A stretch of DNA of 64,000 nucleotides from Patescibacteria group bacterium (GCA_963169855.1 CAUJCN010000002.1:369154-433153); one strand, 5' to 3'. Counted from the stretch's first letter, positions 31,492 to 38,102 are shown. The notes: generated from the letters alone by a model not told the origin. Numbers and translations: made by a program.

Positions 31492-32253
31492 ATGTTGAAG
31501 ATTCAGAACTTAAAAGTAAAACTTGTAGATGGCGATAAAGAAATCCTTCATGGAGTATCTTTGGATGTAAAACCAGGAGAAATCATAATTTTGAACGGTA
31601 AAAACGGGTCGGGTAAAAGCACACTCGTTAATACAATCATGGGTAATCCAAACTTTGAGATCACCGAAGGAAACATCGAACTTGTAAACGAAGCTCCTAA
31701 CGACTTTATCCTAGGAATGATTGATCCAGACGAAGTTAAAGAAAATGGAAACTATATTGAAGTCTGTTCAGTTGAACCAAACGAAAGATCTCTTCTAGGA
31801 ATCTATCTTGCTAATCAGTACCCTGTAGAAATTCCTGGTGTTAGCTTAACTAGTTTTCTAAGATTAATCTATAACTCTCGAAGACCAAAAGATCAGCAAT
31901 TGAACGTATTTAAATTTAAGAATTTACTAAAAGAAAAAGCAAAAATAATCAATTATCCTGAACATTTACTAGCTAGAAACTTGAATGAAGGATTCTCAGG
32001 TGGAGAAAAGAAAAAAACAGAAATTCTTCAAATGTTGATTTTAGAACCAAAATACGTAATGTTAGACGAAATTGATTCTGGATTAGATAAACAATCAGTA
32101 AAAGAAGTTTTCGAAGGAATCGCAAAATTTAAAGAATCAATTCCAGAAACAACTTTGATTATAATTTCGCACTACGATAAAGTTTTGGATTATCTAAAAC
32201 CAGATAGAACAATCGAAATGGAAGATGGATTGATTAAAGAAATTATTATATGA
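31492..32253 (+). CDS. sufC: Fe-S cluster assembly ATPase SufC
   Basis: Walker A GKNGSGKSTL, Q-loop/YP(V/I)EIPGVS, signature FSGGEKKK with the EILQM continuation, and Walker B VMLDEIDSGLD. Together these are diagnostic for SufC. Confidence 0.85.
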   Translation: MLKIQNLKVKLVDGDKEILHGVSLDVKPGEIIILNGKNGSGKSTLVNTIMGNPNFEITEGNIELVNEAPNDFILGMIDPDEVKENGNYIEVCSVEPNERSLLGIYLANQYPVEIPGVSLTSFLRLIYNSRRPKDQQLNVFKFKNLLKEKAKIINYPEHLLARNLNEGFSGGEKKKTEILQMLILEPKYVMLDEIDSGLDKQSVKEVFEGIAKFKESIPETTLIIISHYDKVLDYLKPDRTIEMEDGLIKEIII

Positions 32254-32829
32254 ACACTAGCAGAATTATTATAGCCACTTTCTTGACTTTTGTTTTTTGT
32301 GGAGTTCTAATAATTTTCTTTTATAGTGGCAAGTGTCCTTAAATAAAACCCCTTACTAAATCTCAAGATTCTAATAAGATTAATAATTCAGTAAAGGACT
32401 CAATCTATAAGCAAATTCCGATAAGTAGTCCTGAGAACGATATCGCAGATCAAAAAAAAGAAAGAGCTTGATGCTAAAAATAAGATTATTGCAGAAAATA
32501 TCATAGTAAAAAATGAAACTGTTAAGTATATAGATGGCTACTATCGATATTTTTTTGATATTAGGAATATAGGTAATCAGCAATTCTCTGGGAAAGTAGA
32601 AATTACTCTCATGAATGGTGAAGGAACTAAGATTACTAATAGTTCTTTCGATACTCAAGGTTTATTTGAAAACTCAATTGATCCCAGCTTAGGAATGAGT
32701 CGATATATTTCTGCGAGAACGGGAAATACTTTGGAATTTGGGATTAATAGACTGACTACATTTCAATATAATGTCCTTATCAACAATTCCGTATACTTTC
32801 AAGGCGAGGATGAGTTATTGAATTACTAG
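32254..32829 (+). pseudogene. Probable disrupted gene for a secreted protein: a 30-aa signal/TM peptide ORF (MNTSRIIIATFLTFVFCGVLIIFFYSGKCP) followed by a start-less, roughly 120-codon out-of-frame reading frame
   Basis: My manual translation shows a long open frame (..KIIAENIIVKNETVKYIDGYYRYFFDIRNIGNQQFSGKVEITLMNGEGTK...) extending about 45 codons upstream of its only Met. The ORF track splits this region into overlapping opposite-strand fragments. Confidence 0.3.
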
Positions 32830-32913
32830 ATTTAGAAATTAGATATTGGAACTTGGATATTAATTTTTCAACTTCATTCTTATACTTCACCTTAATCTTT
32901 TCCTTATCCTTTC

Positions 32914-32942
32914 TTGCCTTGAATTAATTTTCCCTATATACT
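32914..32942 (+). promoter_or_regulatory. Sigma70-like promoter: TTGCCT, 17-nt spacer, TATACT, about 40 nt upstream of the 32984 start
   Basis: Hexamers and spacer read directly from the sequence. Confidence 0.3.
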
Positions 32943-32983
32943 AAATATGCACAAACTATATTTACACTTGTTACAAGAAATCT

Positions 32984-34246
32984 ATGAGAAAAAAGGCTAA
33001 CTTAGAAGCATCTCCCCTATTGAGCAGTCGGGTTAACAGCACAGTACATCCGGATCGACTGGACCAAACAAGATTTACAGAAATTCAACAAAGCGTTACT
33101 CAAGAAAATAGTTCATTCAGAATAATTATTTACATAGTTATTGTGATCGCTATTGGAGTTGGAGCTGCTTTAGTTGTTAGAAATATGTCTGGTGCAGATA
33201 CATCTAGCAACAATACACCTGAACAAAATGATGACGAGGAGACTCCAAATGTTTCGGCATTTAAGGTTTCTTCATCAGTTTTACAAAATTCAGCTGCAAC
33301 AAATGCTCCAAAAGACAGTGATTTTATTTCATCGCTCTCATCTAAAGTTGGGGATACAGCAACTGTACTAAGTACAGCTAAATTAGATTCTTTAACAATT
33401 AATAAATTTCAGTCTTTCGATAGAGCTGAATTAAAATTTTCATCAGCAAAATTACCATCAATTACGATTAATTTCGCTCAGAATAAAAAATCATTATCAA
33501 TTCCTCTAACTGGAATTATGGAAGTTAATTCAGACTTAAACACAACTTCAGCAATTAATAACGTAATTACTCAATACAAATATTCAACTACTGGTCCAAC
33601 AATGTCTTTTGAATTTACAGATACAGTTGGCTATAGACTTTTAGCTCAAGGAAACACTTTGATAATCGACTTTAAAAAAGAAAGTGTAAGTTTAGCAACT
33701 TCAACAACACCAACAACAACTCCAACGACTCCAGAACCCGAGGAAGAGGAAGAAGATGAGACTCCAGTAGCTGATGGATCTAAACCAGCTGCACCTCATT
33801 TAACAAACGAATTTGGAAGAACAAAACAATATATTTCTAGCAATGTGACTGCAAGCACAATTGGATATAACAACTACTTTGTTTATGATGCAAATTCATA
33901 TTTTGAATTTAGTTTCGGTGCTAATGGATTAGCAGGAGCAGCAAATACTCCAAATGCATCAGCAGAATATGTAGAGAAAGATGGAAAGACCTTCATTGAA
34001 ATTGTTATTGAAAATCTGTCATCAGCACCATTCACAGTATCAAGAGGAAAAACTGCAGCCCAAGTTGAAGCAGAAACAGGTCTGAGCGTGTCTGGAGGAA
34101 ATTTTAAAGGAATTTCGCTAATTGACTTTGCAAATGGCAAAGCAACGTATAGAATTGAAGTAAAGAACAAAGCTGACTTTAAATTATTAGTTCAAGATTG
34201 GACTGATACAGCAACTGATGTATTAAGTATACAGATTAAAGATTAA
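32984..34246 (+). CDS. Type II membrane-anchored surface protein (420 aa) with two extracellular beta-rich modules joined by a TTPTTTPTTPEPEEEEEDETP linker
   Basis: A cytoplasmic N-terminus is followed by one TM helix. The exported region is low-complexity and Thr/Ser-rich. Confidence 0.55.
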   Translation: MRKKANLEASPLLSSRVNSTVHPDRLDQTRFTEIQQSVTQENSSFRIIIYIVIVIAIGVGAALVVRNMSGADTSSNNTPEQNDDEETPNVSAFKVSSSVLQNSAATNAPKDSDFISSLSSKVGDTATVLSTAKLDSLTINKFQSFDRAELKFSSAKLPSITINFAQNKKSLSIPLTGIMEVNSDLNTTSAINNVITQYKYSTTGPTMSFEFTDTVGYRLLAQGNTLIIDFKKESVSLATSTTPTTTPTTPEPEEEEEDETPVADGSKPAAPHLTNEFGRTKQYISSNVTASTIGYNNYFVYDANSYFEFSFGANGLAGAANTPNASAEYVEKDGKTFIEIVIENLSSAPFTVSRGKTAAQVEAETGLSVSGGNFKGISLIDFANGKATYRIEVKNKADFKLLVQDWTDTATDVLSIQIKD

Positions 34247-35133
34247 TGAATATTAGAGCCTTAAATAACATCTTGATGATTTGGATTTTCCTAGCATTGA
34301 TAGGAACTTCCTTAGGTTTAGTATTACTAATTCAAAGAAGTAACGCTCCTGCGGATTCTCAAGCTGGAGATCTTCAAGGAGTTTTCTTAGATGTAACTCC
34401 AAAGGATAATCGACATGTTTTTAGTATCGATGAAGTTGCTGAATACCAGCTTACATTCAGAGATACAACTGGAGTAACAAATAGCTTTAACAATTTGAAC
34501 ATAAAAGTTCAGTATCCAAAAGAGTTTCTAGAGCCAGAAGCAGAATTCTTTACTTTAGGATCTGCAATTTTACCTGCAAGCGAATCTGTTGGAGAATGTT
34601 TGGCTGCTGATAGTTCTTATGCATGTGCCGAACTAGATTTAGCAAAAGCTAGTAGTGCTTTATTAAAAGACGGTGAAATCGTAGCAAACATTTTCTTTAA
34701 AGTGATTAATAATACCAGAGAACCTGAAGAACTTAGATTAGGTGTAGAAAATACAGCTTCATTTAACGAAGACACTAATTCATATGTTTCTTCTGCAAAT
34801 AACGAAGTAAAAGTCCCTTTGATTGGTAGTACTGTTCTATTTAAGGTTCAGAGCAAGTGTTTAGGAGACTACAATGGACTTAAATCAGGAGGAAAAGAAG
34901 TCGATATCGAAGATCTAGCAATGTTTGGAAGCAAGTACGGAACTTTACTGAACGAGAAAGATATATTCAATTTTGATTTAGTTTCTAACGCTCCGAGTTG
35001 TGAAAACTGCTCTGCTCAATTAGACGAACAAGATTTAAAGATAATTTTATGCAACTACGCAAGTAATAGCTGTAGATTCGATCGAGACAACGTTCCTACT
35101 CAGGAAGAGATTTTAAATTTACAATGTGAATAA
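34246..35133 (+). CDS. Secreted protein with a cohesin-like beta-sandwich N-terminal domain and a Cys-rich, dockerin-like C-terminal module
   Basis: Signal/TM at the N-terminus. The cohesin-like pattern is LNIKVQYPKEFLE...IVANIFFKVINNT. The C-terminal GDYNGLKSGGKEVDIEDLAMFGSKYG / NFDLVSN...DEQDLKIIL resembles dockerin repeats. Contains eight Cys. Its ATG overlaps the preceding stop (ATGA). Confidence 0.5.
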   Translation: MNIRALNNILMIWIFLALIGTSLGLVLLIQRSNAPADSQAGDLQGVFLDVTPKDNRHVFSIDEVAEYQLTFRDTTGVTNSFNNLNIKVQYPKEFLEPEAEFFTLGSAILPASESVGECLAADSSYACAELDLAKASSALLKDGEIVANIFFKVINNTREPEELRLGVENTASFNEDTNSYVSSANNEVKVPLIGSTVLFKVQSKCLGDYNGLKSGGKEVDIEDLAMFGSKYGTLLNEKDIFNFDLVSNAPSCENCSAQLDEQDLKIILCNYASNSCRFDRDNVPTQEEILNLQCE

Positions 35134-35690
35134 TGAGATATAGAACATTTGCACTTCTTATAATCGCAATCGCAGTAACAATATCATTTATTGGAGTTTG
35201 GGGCGTTTACAGCTCATCACAGACTTCTGCAGATACAGAAAATGAATTCAGTTTCGAAACAGTAGTTGTAAACAAAGATAGTCCTTATACTTTCAACTTT
35301 AACTACACAAATTCACGAGTTGAATTGAACCAACCACAAGACTTATCGATCTTCTTGAATTCTCAATCAAATGAGCTATTCCGTGGAGCTGAGATTAAGT
35401 TACAGTACGATACTTCAAAAATAACGATTGATTCCATTGAGGGATCTACAGGATCTTTTGATCTTTACCCAAATCCAGCTGATACAGATGGAACAATCAC
35501 AATTTCTGGCGTGACTACAGAAGACAAAGTTCTAAACTTTGGAGTTGAGATAGTAAGAATAAAATTTACTAAGATCGCTTCTGGTACAGCCGAAATCAAA
35601 ATTATAGGTGGAGAAAGTGGATCTAAAGTAGTCAATGATGAATTTGGAACATTTGTTTCTAACGAAACTGTCTTAACAATTTCTGATTAA
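35133..35690 (+). CDS. Membrane-anchored cohesin-like domain protein (185 aa)
   Basis: AEIKLQYDTSKITIDSIEGSTGSFDL...DGTITISGVTT...VEIVRIKFTKIASGTAEIKI follows the cohesin domain consensus. Its start overlaps the previous stop. Confidence 0.5.
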   Translation: MRYRTFALLIIAIAVTISFIGVWGVYSSSQTSADTENEFSFETVVVNKDSPYTFNFNYTNSRVELNQPQDLSIFLNSQSNELFRGAEIKLQYDTSKITIDSIEGSTGSFDLYPNPADTDGTITISGVTTEDKVLNFGVEIVRIKFTKIASGTAEIKIIGGESGSKVVNDEFGTFVSNETVLTISD

Positions 35691-37669
35691 GCAAAAATTC
35701 TTTCGTGAAGTTCTTTAGCCTCAGCATCTGATAAGTTTACATAACTTACTCTGAATGTGTAGTTTGTTACATCTCCTTGTTTATACTCATCCATAAACTT
35801 TGTAGAATAGATACTATTTCTAATTTCAGAAGTTCTTTGAGCCACAATATCCATTGCCTCATTTAGATTCTTGGCAGAAATGTTTACATCAAGATCGGCA
35901 ATTCTGTTAGTAATTTCCATGCTTGAAGTAAATGGTTTAATCATAGAATTTATTGTTTCTAAATTGATTTCTGCGAATGTAAATTCTTGTTCAGTTACTA
36001 GCTTGTTTGAAACAGCTAACAATCCAACATGTGTTCCATTTACAGCTACAGAATAAGTGTTTGATGGATGAAAAATCTCTGCATCTTTCATTTTATCCAA
36101 TCTTATTTCTACATCTCCTAAAGTTTTCTTGATCAAAATCTGAATATCTTGGAATAACTCACTAACTGCTACTCCATTTCTTAACAAGCCTAATGCGTAA
36201 TGTTCAGCATAATGACCTTCTTCTTTTCTGAAAACTTTTCCGATCTCGAAGAATCTCATCGCTTTAAGGTTGTTTTTTACTCCTTTTACAAAGTGACCCC
36301 ATAAACTCGTAGCCAAATTTGGTCTTATGAAAGGTACTTCTTCATTAATTGAGTTTGTTGTTCTCACAGCAAGACTTGGGTCAATTTCTGTTTTATTAAT
36401 ATCATTTTCTGATACCAAAACCCAAGATCGAACTTCATCGTAACCATTTGCAGCTAAGTGCAAAATTAAAGTATCGATTAAATCCAAAACCTTTGGAGTA
36501 ATATCTTTTGTAGATTCGATTGAAATATTCTGTAAAGGAATTCTGTCGTATCCATAAATTCGAATAACCTCCTCAATTAAATCTTCTTCCATTGTTACAT
36601 CCAATCTGTTCACAGCATGATTGAAAGTATAAACTTCGCCTTGCTTGCTAACAGTCTGAAATCCTAGCCTATTTAGAATAATCTCTGATTCGTTGTGAGG
36701 AATTTCGATTCCAGCTAAGGCATTCAGTTTGTTTAAATCTAAGGTTATTGGATCAATCTTTGTTGGTTCTAAATAAATGTCTGTTAAGTTTGTGACAATC
36801 TTTCCTCCGCAATTATCTAAAATCAAACTAACTAACCAATCAAATGCTAAGTGAAGTGTGTCTGGATCTAAATATTTTTCTAATCTACTTCCAGCTTCTG
36901 TGAAGATATTTAGTTTTCTTGAGTTCTGTCTTACTATTCCACCTTCATAAACTGCCATTTCTAGAATAATATTTTTTGAATTCTGAGTGATTTCTACCTC
37001 TTTTCCTCCAATGAAAGTAAGTGATGTAGCTCTTGTTAAATCTGAGATTATTAGTATAGATGGATCAATTTCCACTTCTTCTCCATTTAGAGTTGTAAAT
37101 TTTTCATTTTGGACTGGGTATTTCCAAATCAATTTTTCGCCCTGTAACAAATCTCTATCAAAAGCGTGTGAGGCATGACCGGTTTCGATCATCACATAGT
37201 TAGAAAGGTCAACTAAATTGTTAATAGAATTCATTCCATATCTTTCCAAGTATTCTTTGAGCCATGCTGGGGATTCTCCAACTGTTACACCTTCAAGTTC
37301 AACAGCTTGTAATCTTTTTACACCACGATCTGCTTCAACAGAAACTGCCGCATTTCTTTCGGAAACTGGATATGTAGGGATTACGTAATCTGGTAAGGAA
37401 AGACCGATGTTATAAAAAGCTGATAGTTCTCTAGCTAAGCCTAAAACTCCAAAGCAGTCTGCTCTATTCTGTCTGACTTCTAAGTCCAGTAGATAGTCTT
37501 TCTGCCCCTGATATTCAACTTCATAGAATTTGTCCAGCATGTACCCGATTTTAGTGAAAGCATTTGCTGCTTCTCTTGGTCCATCTGTTAATTCAGGAAG
37601 ATATTTTTTAAGCTGTGAAAACAATAAATACATACGATGAATTATATTAAAAAAAGGCCAATAAGCCAA
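35687..37669 (-). CDS. pheT: Phenylalanyl-tRNA synthetase beta subunit, short form lacking the N-terminal OB tRNA-binding domain
   Basis: B3/4 domain, B5 domain (DLIEEVIRIYGYDRIP), class II-like core and a C-terminal anticodon-binding-like domain. No pheS gene is adjacent. Confidence 0.85.
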   Translation of the reverse strand: MAYWPFFNIIHRMYLLFSQLKKYLPELTDGPREAANAFTKIGYMLDKFYEVEYQGQKDYLLDLEVRQNRADCFGVLGLARELSAFYNIGLSLPDYVIPTYPVSERNAAVSVEADRGVKRLQAVELEGVTVGESPAWLKEYLERYGMNSINNLVDLSNYVMIETGHASHAFDRDLLQGEKLIWKYPVQNEKFTTLNGEEVEIDPSILIISDLTRATSLTFIGGKEVEITQNSKNIILEMAVYEGGIVRQNSRKLNIFTEAGSRLEKYLDPDTLHLAFDWLVSLILDNCGGKIVTNLTDIYLEPTKIDPITLDLNKLNALAGIEIPHNESEIILNRLGFQTVSKQGEVYTFNHAVNRLDVTMEEDLIEEVIRIYGYDRIPLQNISIESTKDITPKVLDLIDTLILHLAANGYDEVRSWVLVSENDINKTEIDPSLAVRTTNSINEEVPFIRPNLATSLWGHFVKGVKNNLKAMRFFEIGKVFRKEEGHYAEHYALGLLRNGVAVSELFQDIQILIKKTLGDVEIRLDKMKDAEIFHPSNTYSVAVNGTHVGLLAVSNKLVTEQEFTFAEINLETINSMIKPFTSSMEITNRIADLDVNISAKNLNEAMDIVAQRTSEIRNSIYSTKFMDEYKQGDVTNYTFRVSYVNLSDAEAKELHERIFA

Positions 37670-37715: not shown

Positions 37716-38102
37716 CTACACCTTTCGTTTGTCGTATTCATCAACGATGTTATCAAGTTCCATTTGAGGGAAATAATATCTCACGCCAAAAGAATATGCC
37801 CATAACAAACCAAAACCTATAATTAATGGTGATGCGCACAACATTAATAGTATCAACATTCCTTCAAATTCTAAATGATTAACATAATAACTATTAGAAA
37901 TTAGTCTAGTGATTGGAAATACTATCAAAGAAAGTAAGATTGCTGTCATTAATATTTTGGAGACAACAACTGGTGGAGAGAAACCTTTTCTATAGACATA
38001 AATTCTCCTGGTGTTGGTATCAAAGGTACACTTGCCGTATTTGTAAGATACCGCCAAGATGTATTTTTCTTCTTTATCAGAGATTCTGCTATCACTACTC
38101 AT
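37716..38102 (-). CDS. Small membrane protein (128 aa, about 3 TM helices)
   Basis: ORF plus hydrophobicity. Confidence 0.45.
   Translation of the reverse strand: MSSDSRISDKEEKYILAVSYKYGKCTFDTNTRRIYVYRKGFSPPVVVSKILMTAILLSLIVFPITRLISNSYYVNHLEFEGMLILLMLCASPLIIGFGLLWAYSFGVRYYFPQMELDNIVDEYDKRKV

What the first reader, a model, noticed from the sequence alone, without database searches (positions are those of the whole stretch)
32984..35690. Three-gene secreted operon with cohesin-like and dockerin-like modules in a reduced-genome bacterium
Three translationally coupled genes (stop/start overlaps of the ATGA type) follow a clean TTGCCT-17-TATACT promoter, and each product has an N-terminal signal or anchor. 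Gene 3 (AEIKLQYDTSKITIDSIEG...DGTITISGVTT...VEIVRIKFTKIASGTAEIKI) and the N-terminal half of gene 2 follow the cohesin beta-sandwich consensus. The C-terminal half of gene 2 is Cys-rich and carries two dockerin-like segments (GDYNGLKSGGKEVDIEDLAMFGSKYG; NFDLVSN..DEQDLKIIL). Gene 1 is a type II anchored protein with two modules joined by a Thr/Pro/Glu linker. An anchored scaffold plus cohesin and dockerin partners would make a self-assembling cell-surface complex. In an organism with this minimal a gene set, that points to surface display or attachment to a host cell, rather than carbohydrate degradation. I cannot tell from sequence alone whether the modules bind one another.
Basis: partly seen in the sequence, partly recalled or inferred. 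Interest (0 to 1): 0.7.

Follow-up and report, generated by a model that had tools for sequence, protein, structure and literature searches.

The report
Divergent cohesin–dockerin surface genes in Saccharibacteria
A tiny-genome Saccharibacteria bacterium carries a conserved gene pair whose exported proteins carry highly diverged versions of the cohesin and dockerin "plug and socket" modules known from cellulosomes, so it probably builds a small self-assembling surface complex rather than a cellulose-degrading machine.

Summary
The three co-directional genes are real. They are g1 (32984-34246), g2 (34246-35133) and g3 (35133-35690), all under purifying selection, in a Candidatus Saccharibacteria genome.

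**Cohesin reading: supported at family level.** The window's own proteins miss Pfam. However, members and consensus sequences of both the g3 family and the g2 N-terminal family reach the Pfam Cohesin threshold or fall 0.2 bits short (23.9-27.0 bits against 24.1).

**Dockerin reading: supported by structure, not by HMM.**
- No Pfam Dockerin hit was found in any family member.
- The g2 C-terminal module is an internal tandem duplication.
- It is atypical, with stretched calcium loops and an invariant Cys-Cys pair flanking the module (a putative disulfide clamp).

**The "triad" is not the conserved unit.**
- The g2→g3 pair recurs in six lineages and five genomic contexts, often with a sortase-signal protein.
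- g1 occurs alone in some genomes and is absent from others. It has no recognisable fold.

Verdict: a new variant of a known kind, of moderate interest.

The parts
32914..32942 (+). Promoter-like site TTGCCT-17-TATACT, 42 nt upstream of g1
   Evidence: Found by the consensus scan (9 of 12 matches). The number of such sites in the region is not above shuffled controls (11 against 15.1). It is plausible but unproven.
32984..34246 (+). g1: 420-aa single-pass membrane protein with its N-terminus inside. It has a conserved 45-aa cytoplasmic tail (SPLL...ST.NP..LDQ.RF) and a TM segment at aa 46-66. Outside are domain A (aa ~88-236), a T/P/E linker (aa 237-262) and domain B (aa 263-420). Fold unknown.
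   Evidence: ORF; hydropathy; 12-member family alignment A3; no Pfam, NCBIfam or PDB match; no profile similarity to the cohesin-like domains or between its own two domains; Ka/Ks 0.06-0.11. Found alone between sufC and pheT in L008 and L009.
34246..35133 (+). g2: 295-aa exported protein carrying a cohesin-like domain and a dockerin-like module
   Evidence: ORF; family of only 10 clusters at E<=1e-3 among 1.84 billion representatives; Ka/Ks 0.09-0.14.
34270..34365 (+). g2 N-terminal hydrophobic segment (aa 9-29) followed by the conserved motif A-P-x-D-S-x-A (aa 34-40). This is probably a cleavable signal peptide with an S-x-A signal peptidase site (inference), otherwise a signal anchor.
   Evidence: Hydropathy. 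The motif is invariant in close orthologues and recognisable in distant relatives and in L012_d2. No signal-peptide predictor was available.
34366..34845 (+). g2 cohesin-like domain (aa ~41-200) with an invariant Cys118-Cys127 pair
   Evidence: The window protein has no Pfam hit. Paralogue L012_u1 aa 64-176 hits Pfam Cohesin at 24.7 bits (threshold 24.1). Two of 15 family members hit weakly. The family consensus hits Cohesin at 23.9 bits, E 5.1e-5, over model positions 12-136 of 139. hhalign against the g3 family gives E 0.006 over 114 columns in register, but low probability. The AF2 full-length model was unusable (pLDDT 34).
34858..35073 (+). g2 dockerin-like module (aa 205-276), bracketed by invariant Cys205 and Cys276. 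Repeat 1 is aa 207-232 (GDYN...VD..DL..F...YG). Repeat 2 is aa 243-272 (D...L...DL.....NY).
35074..35130 (+). g2 C-terminal tail (aa 277-295) with a short helix. Cys294 co-occurs with Cys269, a lineage-specific extra Cys pair.
   Evidence: Alignment A2: C269 and C294 are both present in the window protein and P0008, and both absent in P0009-P0012. Helix at aa 286-290 in the model.
35133..35690 (+). g3: 185-aa membrane-anchored cohesin-like protein. It has a TM anchor at aa 5-25, a short S/T-rich linker, and a cohesin-like domain at aa ~44-185.
   Evidence: ORF; hydropathy. The window protein has no Pfam hit. The 75%-identical orthologue P0002 hits Pfam Cohesin at 27.0 bits (threshold 24.1). 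Family member L011_d1 scores 24.6 bits. The family consensus scores 24.9 bits. With the family profile, the top two PDB hits are cohesins: 5lxv_A at E 0.02 and 2vo8_A at E 0.06.

Best explanation
g2 and g3 form a minimal, non-cellulosomal cohesin-dockerin cassette on the surface of a Saccharibacterium.

**Proposed mechanism**
- g3 sits in the membrane through its N-terminal helix and holds out one cohesin-type beta-sandwich on a short Ser/Thr-rich stalk.
- g2 is exported, probably with its signal peptide cut at the conserved DS-x-A site.
- g2 carries a second cohesin-type domain followed by a dockerin that is probably disulfide-clamped.
- The g2 dockerin plugs into a cohesin of the cassette. 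In this genome the most likely partner is g3. In relatives it could also be the sortase-anchored cohesin-like protein d2.
- This tethers g2 to the cell and leaves g2's own cohesin free to capture a further dockerin-bearing protein or another g2.
- The result is a small self-assembling surface display or adhesion structure. g2 would act like an adaptor scaffoldin and g3 like an anchoring scaffoldin.

**Role of g1.** g1 is co-transcribed here, but it is an independently conserved envelope protein of unknown fold. It is not an obligate part of the cassette.

**Shown**
- The gene structure, export signals and purifying selection.
- Family-level cohesin signal for g3 and for the g2 N-terminal domain.
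- The duplicated loop-helix architecture and dockerin-type predicted fold of the g2 C-terminus.
- Conserved g2-g3 adjacency across lineages and genomic contexts.

**Inferred**
- Signal-peptide cleavage.
- Calcium binding.
- Which cohesin the dockerin binds.
- The biological role, whether display or host attachment.
For: **Cohesin signal**
- g3 family: Pfam Cohesin at 27.0, 24.6 and 24.9 bits (threshold 24.1) for orthologue P0002, member L011_d1 and the family consensus.
- With the g3 family profile, the top two PDB hits are cohesins.
- g2 N-terminal family: paralogue L012_u1 scores 24.7 bits. The consensus scores 23.9 bits over almost the whole Pfam model.

**Dockerin signal**
- Internal repeat: hhalign probability 91.7%.
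- AF2 model with pLDDT 79.4.
- hhalign link at about 80% probability to small Cys-clamped Saccharibacterial dockerins, one of which passes the Pfam Dockerin_1 threshold (28.8 against 22.9 bits).
- The invariant pair C205/C276 brackets the module. This would fit the dockerin fold if, as in known dockerins (recalled, not measured on the model), its two ends lie close together.

**Functional coupling of g2 and g3**
- A g2 homologue is followed directly by a g3 homologue in the window clade, L010, L011, L012, the P0027 contig and L013.
- These sit next to pheT, murT/gatD, RuBisCO, arginase/VanY and recA/Wzy respectively.
- In the window clade the genes overlap by 1 nt.

**Surface location**
- N-terminal hydrophobic segments.
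- Cys pairs occur only in the exported parts.
- Relatives add a protein with a signal peptide and an LPSTG/LPATA/LPDTA sorting signal followed by a TM segment.
Against: - The window's own g2 and g3 give no Pfam, NCBIfam or PDB sequence hit.
- No g2 relative, nor the family consensus, hits Pfam Dockerin_1.
- The C-terminal profile finds no dockerin in PDB sequences.
- The calcium loops are 16 and 20 residues long instead of 12. The second loop keeps only the first and last acidic positions, so calcium dependence and cohesin binding could both be lost.
- The beta-sandwich fold was not verified. The full g2 model failed at pLDDT 34 and no model of g3 was made.
- Profile-profile similarity between the g2 N-terminal domain and g3 is weak (E 0.006, probability 6%).
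- No other dockerin-bearing protein was found in the 64-kb window.
Confidence: 0.55

Rival explanations
1. All three proteins form one complex in which membrane-anchored g1 is the scaffold that carries or organises the cohesin and dockerin partners g2 and g3.
For: - g1, g2 and g3 are co-directional with 1-nt stop/start overlaps.
- The same order is kept in relatives at 57-78% identity and in L010 at about 29-37% identity.
- g1 has two extracellular modules on a flexible T/P/E linker.
Against: - g1 homologues stand alone between sufC and pheT in L008 and L009, with no g2 or g3.
- g2-g3 pairs occur without g1 in L011, L012, L013 and the P0027 contig.
- g1 domains have no cohesin, dockerin or other family signal and no profile similarity to the cassette's domains.
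- The g1 position looks like conserved synteny into which g2-g3 was inserted.
Confidence: 0.15
2. The modules are structural descendants or look-alikes of cohesin and dockerin that no longer pair with each other. The g2 C-terminal module is a calcium- or disulfide-stabilised domain that binds something else, such as host cell-wall glycan, peptidoglycan or a host protein. The beta-sandwiches are generic surface spacers or adhesin domains.
For: - The calcium loops are stretched and degenerate, and no Dockerin_1 HMM hit exists.
- Cohesin scores sit only at the threshold.
- P0033 carries the same C-terminal module on an unrelated Ser/Thr-rich protein with no g3 neighbour, so the module can work outside the pair.
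- The L012 paralogues have a roughly 200-aa insert between the two repeats.
- Wang et al. 2023 (PMC10633639) speculate that a Saccharibacterial dockerin-domain envelope protein targets host glycans.
Against: - Strict g2-g3 adjacency across six lineages and five contexts argues for a shared function.
- All structural neighbours of the module are cohesin-binding dockerins. None are EF-hand or carbohydrate-binding proteins.
Confidence: 0.22
3. The g2 dockerin binds g2's own cohesin-like domain, either within one molecule as a closed, auto-inhibited form or head-to-tail to form filaments. g3 would then be only the membrane primer, or unrelated.
For: - g2 carries both module types in one chain.
- L012 has three tandem g2 paralogues but only one g3, as expected for a polymerising subunit.
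Against: There is no direct evidence. g3 is kept next to g2 in every lineage examined, which a self-sufficient g2 polymer would not require.
Confidence: 0.07
4. The ORFs are chance open frames or decaying pseudogenes, and the motif resemblances are noise in AT-rich DNA.
For: Single-sequence searches of the three window proteins found no family.
Against: - Full-length orthologues exist in several contigs.
- Ka/Ks is about 0.06-0.14.
- Cysteines are conserved and co-vary.
- The AF2 model of the C-terminal module is confident.
Confidence: 0.01

Closest known systems
Non-cellulosomal cohesin-dockerin pairs of Clostridium perfringens (NagH/NagJ/NanJ toxin-glycosidase complexes; PDB 2ozn, 2vo8)
   Same: - One of the two best PDB sequence matches of the g3 family profile is the NanJ cohesin, 2vo8_A.
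- Both systems use cohesin-dockerin pairing outside cellulose degradation, according to the PDB entry descriptions.
   Different: - The C. perfringens modules sit on large secreted glycoside hydrolases, whereas these sit on small proteins with no catalytic domain.
- The module here has 16- and 20-residue loops, an invariant flanking Cys pair and no Pfam Dockerin_1 hit.
- Binding is unproven here.
Ruminococcus flavefaciens-type cellulosome anchoring (adaptor scaffoldin with cohesin plus dockerin, such as ScaC or ScaA, bound to the sortase-anchored cohesin protein ScaE)
   Same: - The architecture is analogous. g2 has cohesin plus a C-terminal dockerin, like an adaptor. g3 is a single cohesin fixed to the cell.
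- Relatives (L010, L011, L012) add a signal-peptide protein with an LPxTG-like sorting signal, as in ScaE. The ScaE comparison is from my own knowledge.
- The top PDB sequence hit of the g3 profile is Scaffoldin C, 5lxv_A (E 0.02).
   Different: - No dockerin-bearing enzymes or carbohydrate-binding modules lie in the cluster or the window.
- g3 is anchored by a TM helix, not by sortase.
- The d2 proteins of relatives give no Cohesin hit, and d2 is absent from this window.
- The host organism is an epibiont with a genome of about 0.8 Mb.
Small membrane-anchored, Cys-clamped dockerin proteins of other Saccharibacteria (L008 111 aa, L009 114 aa)
   Same: - They share the C-x-G...(loop-helix)...(loop-helix)...N-Y-x(3-5)-C framework.
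- hhalign gives about 80% probability, E 1e-5.
- The L008 protein passes the Pfam Dockerin_1 threshold at 28.8 bits. It therefore serves as an intermediate sequence linking g2 to true dockerins.
   Different: - Those proteins have canonical 12-residue D-x-N-x-D-G-x-x-D-x-x-D loops and no cohesin domain.
- They lie elsewhere in the genome, near recO and the M48 peptidase gene.
- None is present in this window.
Essential dockerin-domain envelope protein SEML1_0315 of Southlakia epibionticum (Wang et al. 2023, PMC10633639)
   Same: It shows that dockerin-type domains occur on Saccharibacterial envelope proteins and can matter for growth on the host.
   Different: SEML1_0315 is a 927-aa protein with three Ig/FN3-like domains and is not a g2 homologue. 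The gene next to pheT in that genome is a MacB-like permease, not g1.

Membership tests
Cohesin domain (Pfam PF00963) | The window's own protein scores at or above the Pfam gathering threshold (24.1 bits) | tested here: not met
   g2 and g3 from the window give no Cohesin hit even at E<=10.
Cohesin domain (Pfam PF00963) | Family-level HMM membership: orthologues, paralogues or the consensus score at or above threshold | tested here: met
   g3 family: P0002 27.0 bits, L011_d1 24.6 bits, consensus 24.9 bits. g2 N-terminal family: L012_u1 24.7 bits, consensus 23.9 bits over model positions 12-136 of 139. All scores are borderline.
Cohesin domain (Pfam PF00963) | Nine-stranded jelly-roll beta-sandwich fold | tested here: inconclusive
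   The full-length g2 model had pLDDT 34 and is unusable.
Cohesin domain (Pfam PF00963) | Binds a dockerin partner | not testable with these tools
Dockerin (Pfam PF00404 Dockerin_1) | HMM score at or above the gathering threshold (22.9 bits) | tested here: not met
   No hit for the window g2, for any of the g2-family members scanned across, or for the module consensus. The module profile also finds no PDB dockerin by sequence.
Dockerin (Pfam PF00404 Dockerin_1) | Tandem duplication of a loop-helix segment | tested here: met
   Repeat 1 against repeat 2: hhalign probability 91.7%, E 7.6e-7 over 27 columns. Helices follow each loop in the model, at aa 221-230 and 261-272.
Dockerin (Pfam PF00404 Dockerin_1) | Dockerin three-dimensional fold | tested here: met
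   [not shown]
Dockerin (Pfam PF00404 Dockerin_1) | Two canonical 12-residue EF-hand-like Ca2+ loops (D-x-[DN]-x-[DN]-G-x-x-x-x-x-D) | tested here: not met
   Loop 1 is D208-D223, 16 residues. Positions 1, 3, 9 and 12 are conserved, with an insertion where position 5 would be. Loop 2 is D244-D263, 20 residues in this clade and about 15-17 in others. Only its first and last Asp are invariant.
Dockerin (Pfam PF00404 Dockerin_1) | Ca2+-dependent binding to a cohesin | not testable with these tools
   Needs a multimer prediction or biochemistry.
Cellulosome | Dockerin-bearing carbohydrate-active enzymes and a CBM-bearing scaffoldin | tested here: not met
   No catalytic or CBM domain is present in g1-g3. 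No other dockerin-like or cohesin-like ORF lies in the 64-kb window. The rest of the genome was not available.

The most novel reading that the evidence does not exclude
Saccharibacteria, and possibly other Patescibacteria, carry a self-contained two- or three-gene cohesin-dockerin cassette. It uses a previously unrecognised dockerin subclass with extended loops and a flanking Cys pair, a probable disulfide clamp. This subclass is invisible to current HMMs. The cassette would assemble a modular surface structure used by the epibiont to display proteins or to attach to its host bacterium, as a cellulosome-style plug-and-socket system repurposed for episymbiosis.
Probability: 0.35. Interest if true: 0.65.

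Novelty: new variant of a known kind. Interest (0 to 1): 0.5.

Why it matters
How ultrasmall epibiotic bacteria build their cell surface and hold on to host cells is largely unknown. Most of their envelope proteins are unannotated.

If this cassette is a working cohesin-dockerin pair, three things follow:
- It gives a concrete, testable assembly principle for part of the Saccharibacterial surface.
- It adds a divergent dockerin subclass that current domain models miss, so similar systems are probably under-counted in metagenomes.
- It supplies a very small natural cohesin-dockerin pair that could serve as an orthogonal protein-assembly tag.

It is not a wholly new kind of system. Non-cellulosomal cohesins and dockerins are well known. 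Dockerin-like proteins have already been noted in candidate-phyla genomes (PMC3812714) and on a Saccharibacterial envelope protein (PMC10633639).

Tried and rejected
**Searches that found nothing useful**
- Single-sequence Pfam, NCBIfam and PDB searches of the three window proteins gave no meaningful hit. The weak hits were DUF1272, angiotensinogen, phospholipase A2, PepA (E 0.021) and SAG1386. They have poor E-values and no consistency across orthologues, so I rejected them as noise.
- The shallow profiles A1, A2 and A3 against PDB found nothing. The g2 N-terminal profile A9 placed a cohesin only at rank 4 with E 0.66.
- Shallow hhalign of g2 against g3 found no relation. With enlarged families the result is only weakly suggestive.
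- g1 domains against each other and against the cohesin-like families showed no relation. Their consensus sequences gave only insignificant Pfam hits, NEAT at E 0.024 and SWM_repeat at E 0.034.

**Structure work**
- AF2 of full-length g2 with 6 close sequences gave pLDDT 34 and was discarded.
- The afdb50 library was unavailable.

**Distribution searches**
- Two scans of metagenome contigs found no relatives. Diverse alignments were too variable to make search patterns.

**Local and literature checks**
- A test for a Peptidase_S51 pseudogene remnant in the 730-nt gap upstream of g1 was negative.
- No d2-like, LPxTG-type or small-dockerin gene is present in the window.
- I checked whether S. 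epibionticum Tn-seq data cover this locus. They do not: the pheT neighbour there is a MacB-like permease.
- Literature searches found no description of this cassette.
Full report
**1. What is in the sequence**

Three co-directional ORFs lie on the + strand: g1 32984-34246 (420 aa), g2 34246-35133 (295 aa) and g3 35133-35690 (185 aa).
- The stop and start codons share one base (TAATG).
- The TTGCCT-17-TATACT site is at 32914-32942. Promoter-like matches here are no commoner than in shuffled sequence (11 against 15.1 +/- 4.0), and no terminator was found.
- g3 ends in a stop-to-stop overlap with the convergent pheT gene.
- Context: sufC (31492-32253), a 730-nt gap, g1-g2-g3, then pheT, a 128-aa ORF, recO and secY on the other strand.
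- The window is 34.8% GC.
- Identical proteins sit on an 817,811-bp NCBI contig.
- The closest relatives found in species genomes are labelled uncultured Candidatus Saccharibacteria.

**2. The genes are real and their products are exported**
- Orthologues at 57-78% identity keep the same order in contigs L001-L007.
- pN is far below pS for all three genes. Ka/Ks is about 0.08-0.09 against the nearest relative, though synonymous sites are near saturation.
- Each product has a single N-terminal hydrophobic segment.
- g1 has a basic, conserved 45-aa tail before its TM helix, so its N-terminus is inside and its C-terminus outside. Outside it carries two ectodomains separated by a T/P/E linker.
- In g2 the hydrophobic segment is followed by an A-P-x-D-S-x-A motif. 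The motif is invariant in close orthologues and recognisable in distant ones. I read it as a signal-peptidase site (S-x-A), which is an inference.
- g3 has no conserved cleavage-type motif, so it probably stays anchored. This is also an inference.

**3. Cohesin claim**

At family level the signal appears repeatedly, and Cohesin is always the top hit.

| Sequence | Family | Pfam Cohesin score (threshold 24.1) |
|---|---|---|
| P0002 (75% identical to g3) | g3 | 27.0 bits |
| L011_d1 | g3 | 24.6 bits |
| Family consensus | g3 | 24.9 bits |
| L012_u1, aa 64-176 | g2 N-terminal | 24.7 bits |
| Family consensus | g2 N-terminal | 23.9 bits, model positions 12-136 of 139 |

- With a diversified g3 profile, the two best PDB sequence hits are cohesins: 5lxv_A Scaffoldin C (E 0.02) and 2vo8_A, the C. 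perfringens sialidase cohesin (E 0.06).
- Support for the g2 N-terminal domain is weaker. PDB gave nothing significant, and hhalign against the g3 family gave E 0.006 with low probability.
- The beta-sandwich fold could not be confirmed.

**4. Dockerin claim**

No g2 relative hits Pfam Dockerin_1. The C-terminal profile finds no PDB dockerin by sequence. Four other lines of evidence agree on a dockerin:
- **Internal duplication.** In 12-15 diverse relatives the module has the pattern C-x-G-D-Y-N-(loop)-V-D-x-x-D-L-x-x-F-x-x-x-Y ... D-(loop)-L-x-x-x-D-L-x-x-F-x-x-N-Y-x(3-5)-C. The two halves align with each other at 91.7% hhalign probability, E 7.6e-7.
- **An intermediate sequence.** The module aligns, at about 80% probability and E 1e-5, to small membrane-anchored Saccharibacterial proteins that share the same Cys framing. 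One of these passes the Dockerin_1 threshold at 28.8 bits.
- **A confident model.** An AF2 model of aa 196-295 built from 14 sequences has pLDDT 79.4 and pTM 0.71, with helices directly after each loop.
- **Structural neighbours.**
  - Foldseek against 350,542 chains returned only two hits at E<=10, both dockerins, at non-significant E-values.

The module is atypical in three ways:
- Its loops are 16 and 20 residues long rather than 12.
- The second loop is degenerate.
- An invariant C205/C276 pair brackets it. I infer this is a disulfide clamp. The window clade has extra, co-varying cysteines.

**5. What the conserved unit is**

g2's family is very small: 10 clusters at E<=1e-3 among 1.84 billion representatives. 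In every lineage with a full-length g2 homologue, a g3-family gene follows it directly.

| Lineage | Genomic neighbours |
|---|---|
| Window clade | pheT side |
| L010 | pheT side |
| L011 | after murT/gatD |
| L012 (three tandem g2 paralogues) | next to RuBisCO |
| P0027 contig (neighbour has a weak Cohesin hit) | arginase/VanY |
| L013 (neighbour hits the g3 HMM at 1e-29) | recA/Wzy |

- L010, L011 and L012 add a further protein, d2. It has a signal peptide, a Cys-pair beta-rich domain and an LPSTG/LPATA/LPDTA sorting signal followed by a TM segment. d2 is absent from this window.
- g1 homologues stand alone between sufC and pheT in L008 and L009. g1 is missing from L011, L012, L013 and the P0027 contig.
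- g1 has no detectable family or relation to the cohesin-like domains.

The functional unit is therefore g2-g3, with d2 in some lineages. g1 is a separately conserved envelope protein beside which the pair sits in this lineage.

**6. Most likely mechanism**
- g3 is a membrane-anchored cohesin.
- g2 is an exported adaptor with a cohesin and a C-terminal dockerin.
- The dockerin docks on a cassette cohesin. Here that is g3; in relatives it could also be cell-wall-linked d2.
- g2's own cohesin then remains free for a further dockerin protein or another g2.

This resembles a minimal anchoring-scaffoldin/adaptor-scaffoldin pair without enzymes. Surface display or host attachment is a reasonable but unproven role. 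The folds and the genetic linkage are shown. Binding, calcium dependence, cleavage and biological role are inferred. I put confidence in this mechanism at about 0.55.

Rivals:
- The modules have diverged to bind something other than each other (0.22).
- g2 self-associates (0.07).

**7. Comparison with what is known, and novelty**
- Non-cellulosomal cohesin-dockerin pairs are established. The C. perfringens entries 2ozn and 2vo8 are the nearest matches here.
- Dockerin-like proteins have been noted in candidate-phyla genomes (PMC3812714).
- An essential dockerin-domain envelope protein has been reported in Southlakia epibionticum, but it is an unrelated 927-aa protein (PMC10633639).
- Literature searches found no description of this cassette.

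I classify it as a new variant of a known kind. It combines a divergent dockerin, which has extended loops, a flanking Cys pair and no HMM signal, with borderline cohesins in a conserved mini-cassette of an epibiont. Interest is 0.5.

Noticed in passing
window 32254-32983: There is a 730-nt gap with no convincing gene between sufC and g1, which is unusually long for this compact genome. Relatives have either a Peptidase_S51 gene there (L001-L003) or a spacer of only about 135 nt (L005). The gap holds only short ORFs (72 aa on +, 92 aa on -) with no family hit. No S51 remnant was found and no Rfam family matched.
   Followed up: partly
L010:8919-9605, L011:6497-7201, L012:7076-7996: In relatives, a further gene (d2) follows g3. 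It encodes a signal peptide, a Cys-pair beta-rich domain and a C-terminal LPSTG/LPATA/LPDTA motif followed by a hydrophobic and then basic tail, which looks like a sortase sorting signal. It has no Pfam hit. It aligns weakly to the g2 N-terminal domain (hhalign E 0.0017). It is absent from this window.
   Followed up: partly
L012:1908-6452: Three tandem g2 paralogues (483-506 aa) each carry an insertion of about 200 aa of unknown fold between the two dockerin-like repeats. This is an unusual split-dockerin architecture.
   Followed up: no
L008:11388-11726 (-), L009:5357-5704 (-): These are small (111-114 aa) membrane-anchored proteins made of little more than a Cys-framed dockerin with canonical 12-residue loops. 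The L008 protein scores 28.8 bits on Pfam Dockerin_1. They occur in Saccharibacteria that lack g2 and g3, near the recO and M48 peptidase genes.
   Followed up: partly
window 34345-34365 (g2 aa 34-40): The motif A-P-x-D-S-x-A lies just after the hydrophobic segment. It is conserved across the whole g2 family and also occurs in L012_d2 (LAPRDSAAA). It could be a signal-peptidase site or a lineage-specific sorting motif.
   Followed up: no
window 32984-33118 (g1 aa 1-45): The cytoplasmic tail of g1 carries a strongly conserved motif, SPLL...ST(I/V)(N/H)P(D/E)(R/K)LDQxRF. It persists in homologues at 28-37% identity. This suggests an intracellular partner or signal for this otherwise extracellular protein.
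   Followed up: no
L014:5001-6071 (P0033): The same Cys-flanked dockerin-like module sits at the C-terminus of an otherwise unrelated 356-aa Ser/Thr-rich protein with no g3-like neighbour. The module is therefore mobile between proteins.
   Followed up: no
window 35687-37669 (-) and 37716-38102 (-): pheT here aligns to the bacterial pheT model only from model position 155 and scores below the equivalog cut-off (350 against 402.65 bits). That is consistent with a missing N-terminal tRNA-binding domain. Between pheT and recO lies a 128-aa ORF with hydrophobic stretches suggesting two TM segments (judged by eye) and no family hit.
   Followed up: no
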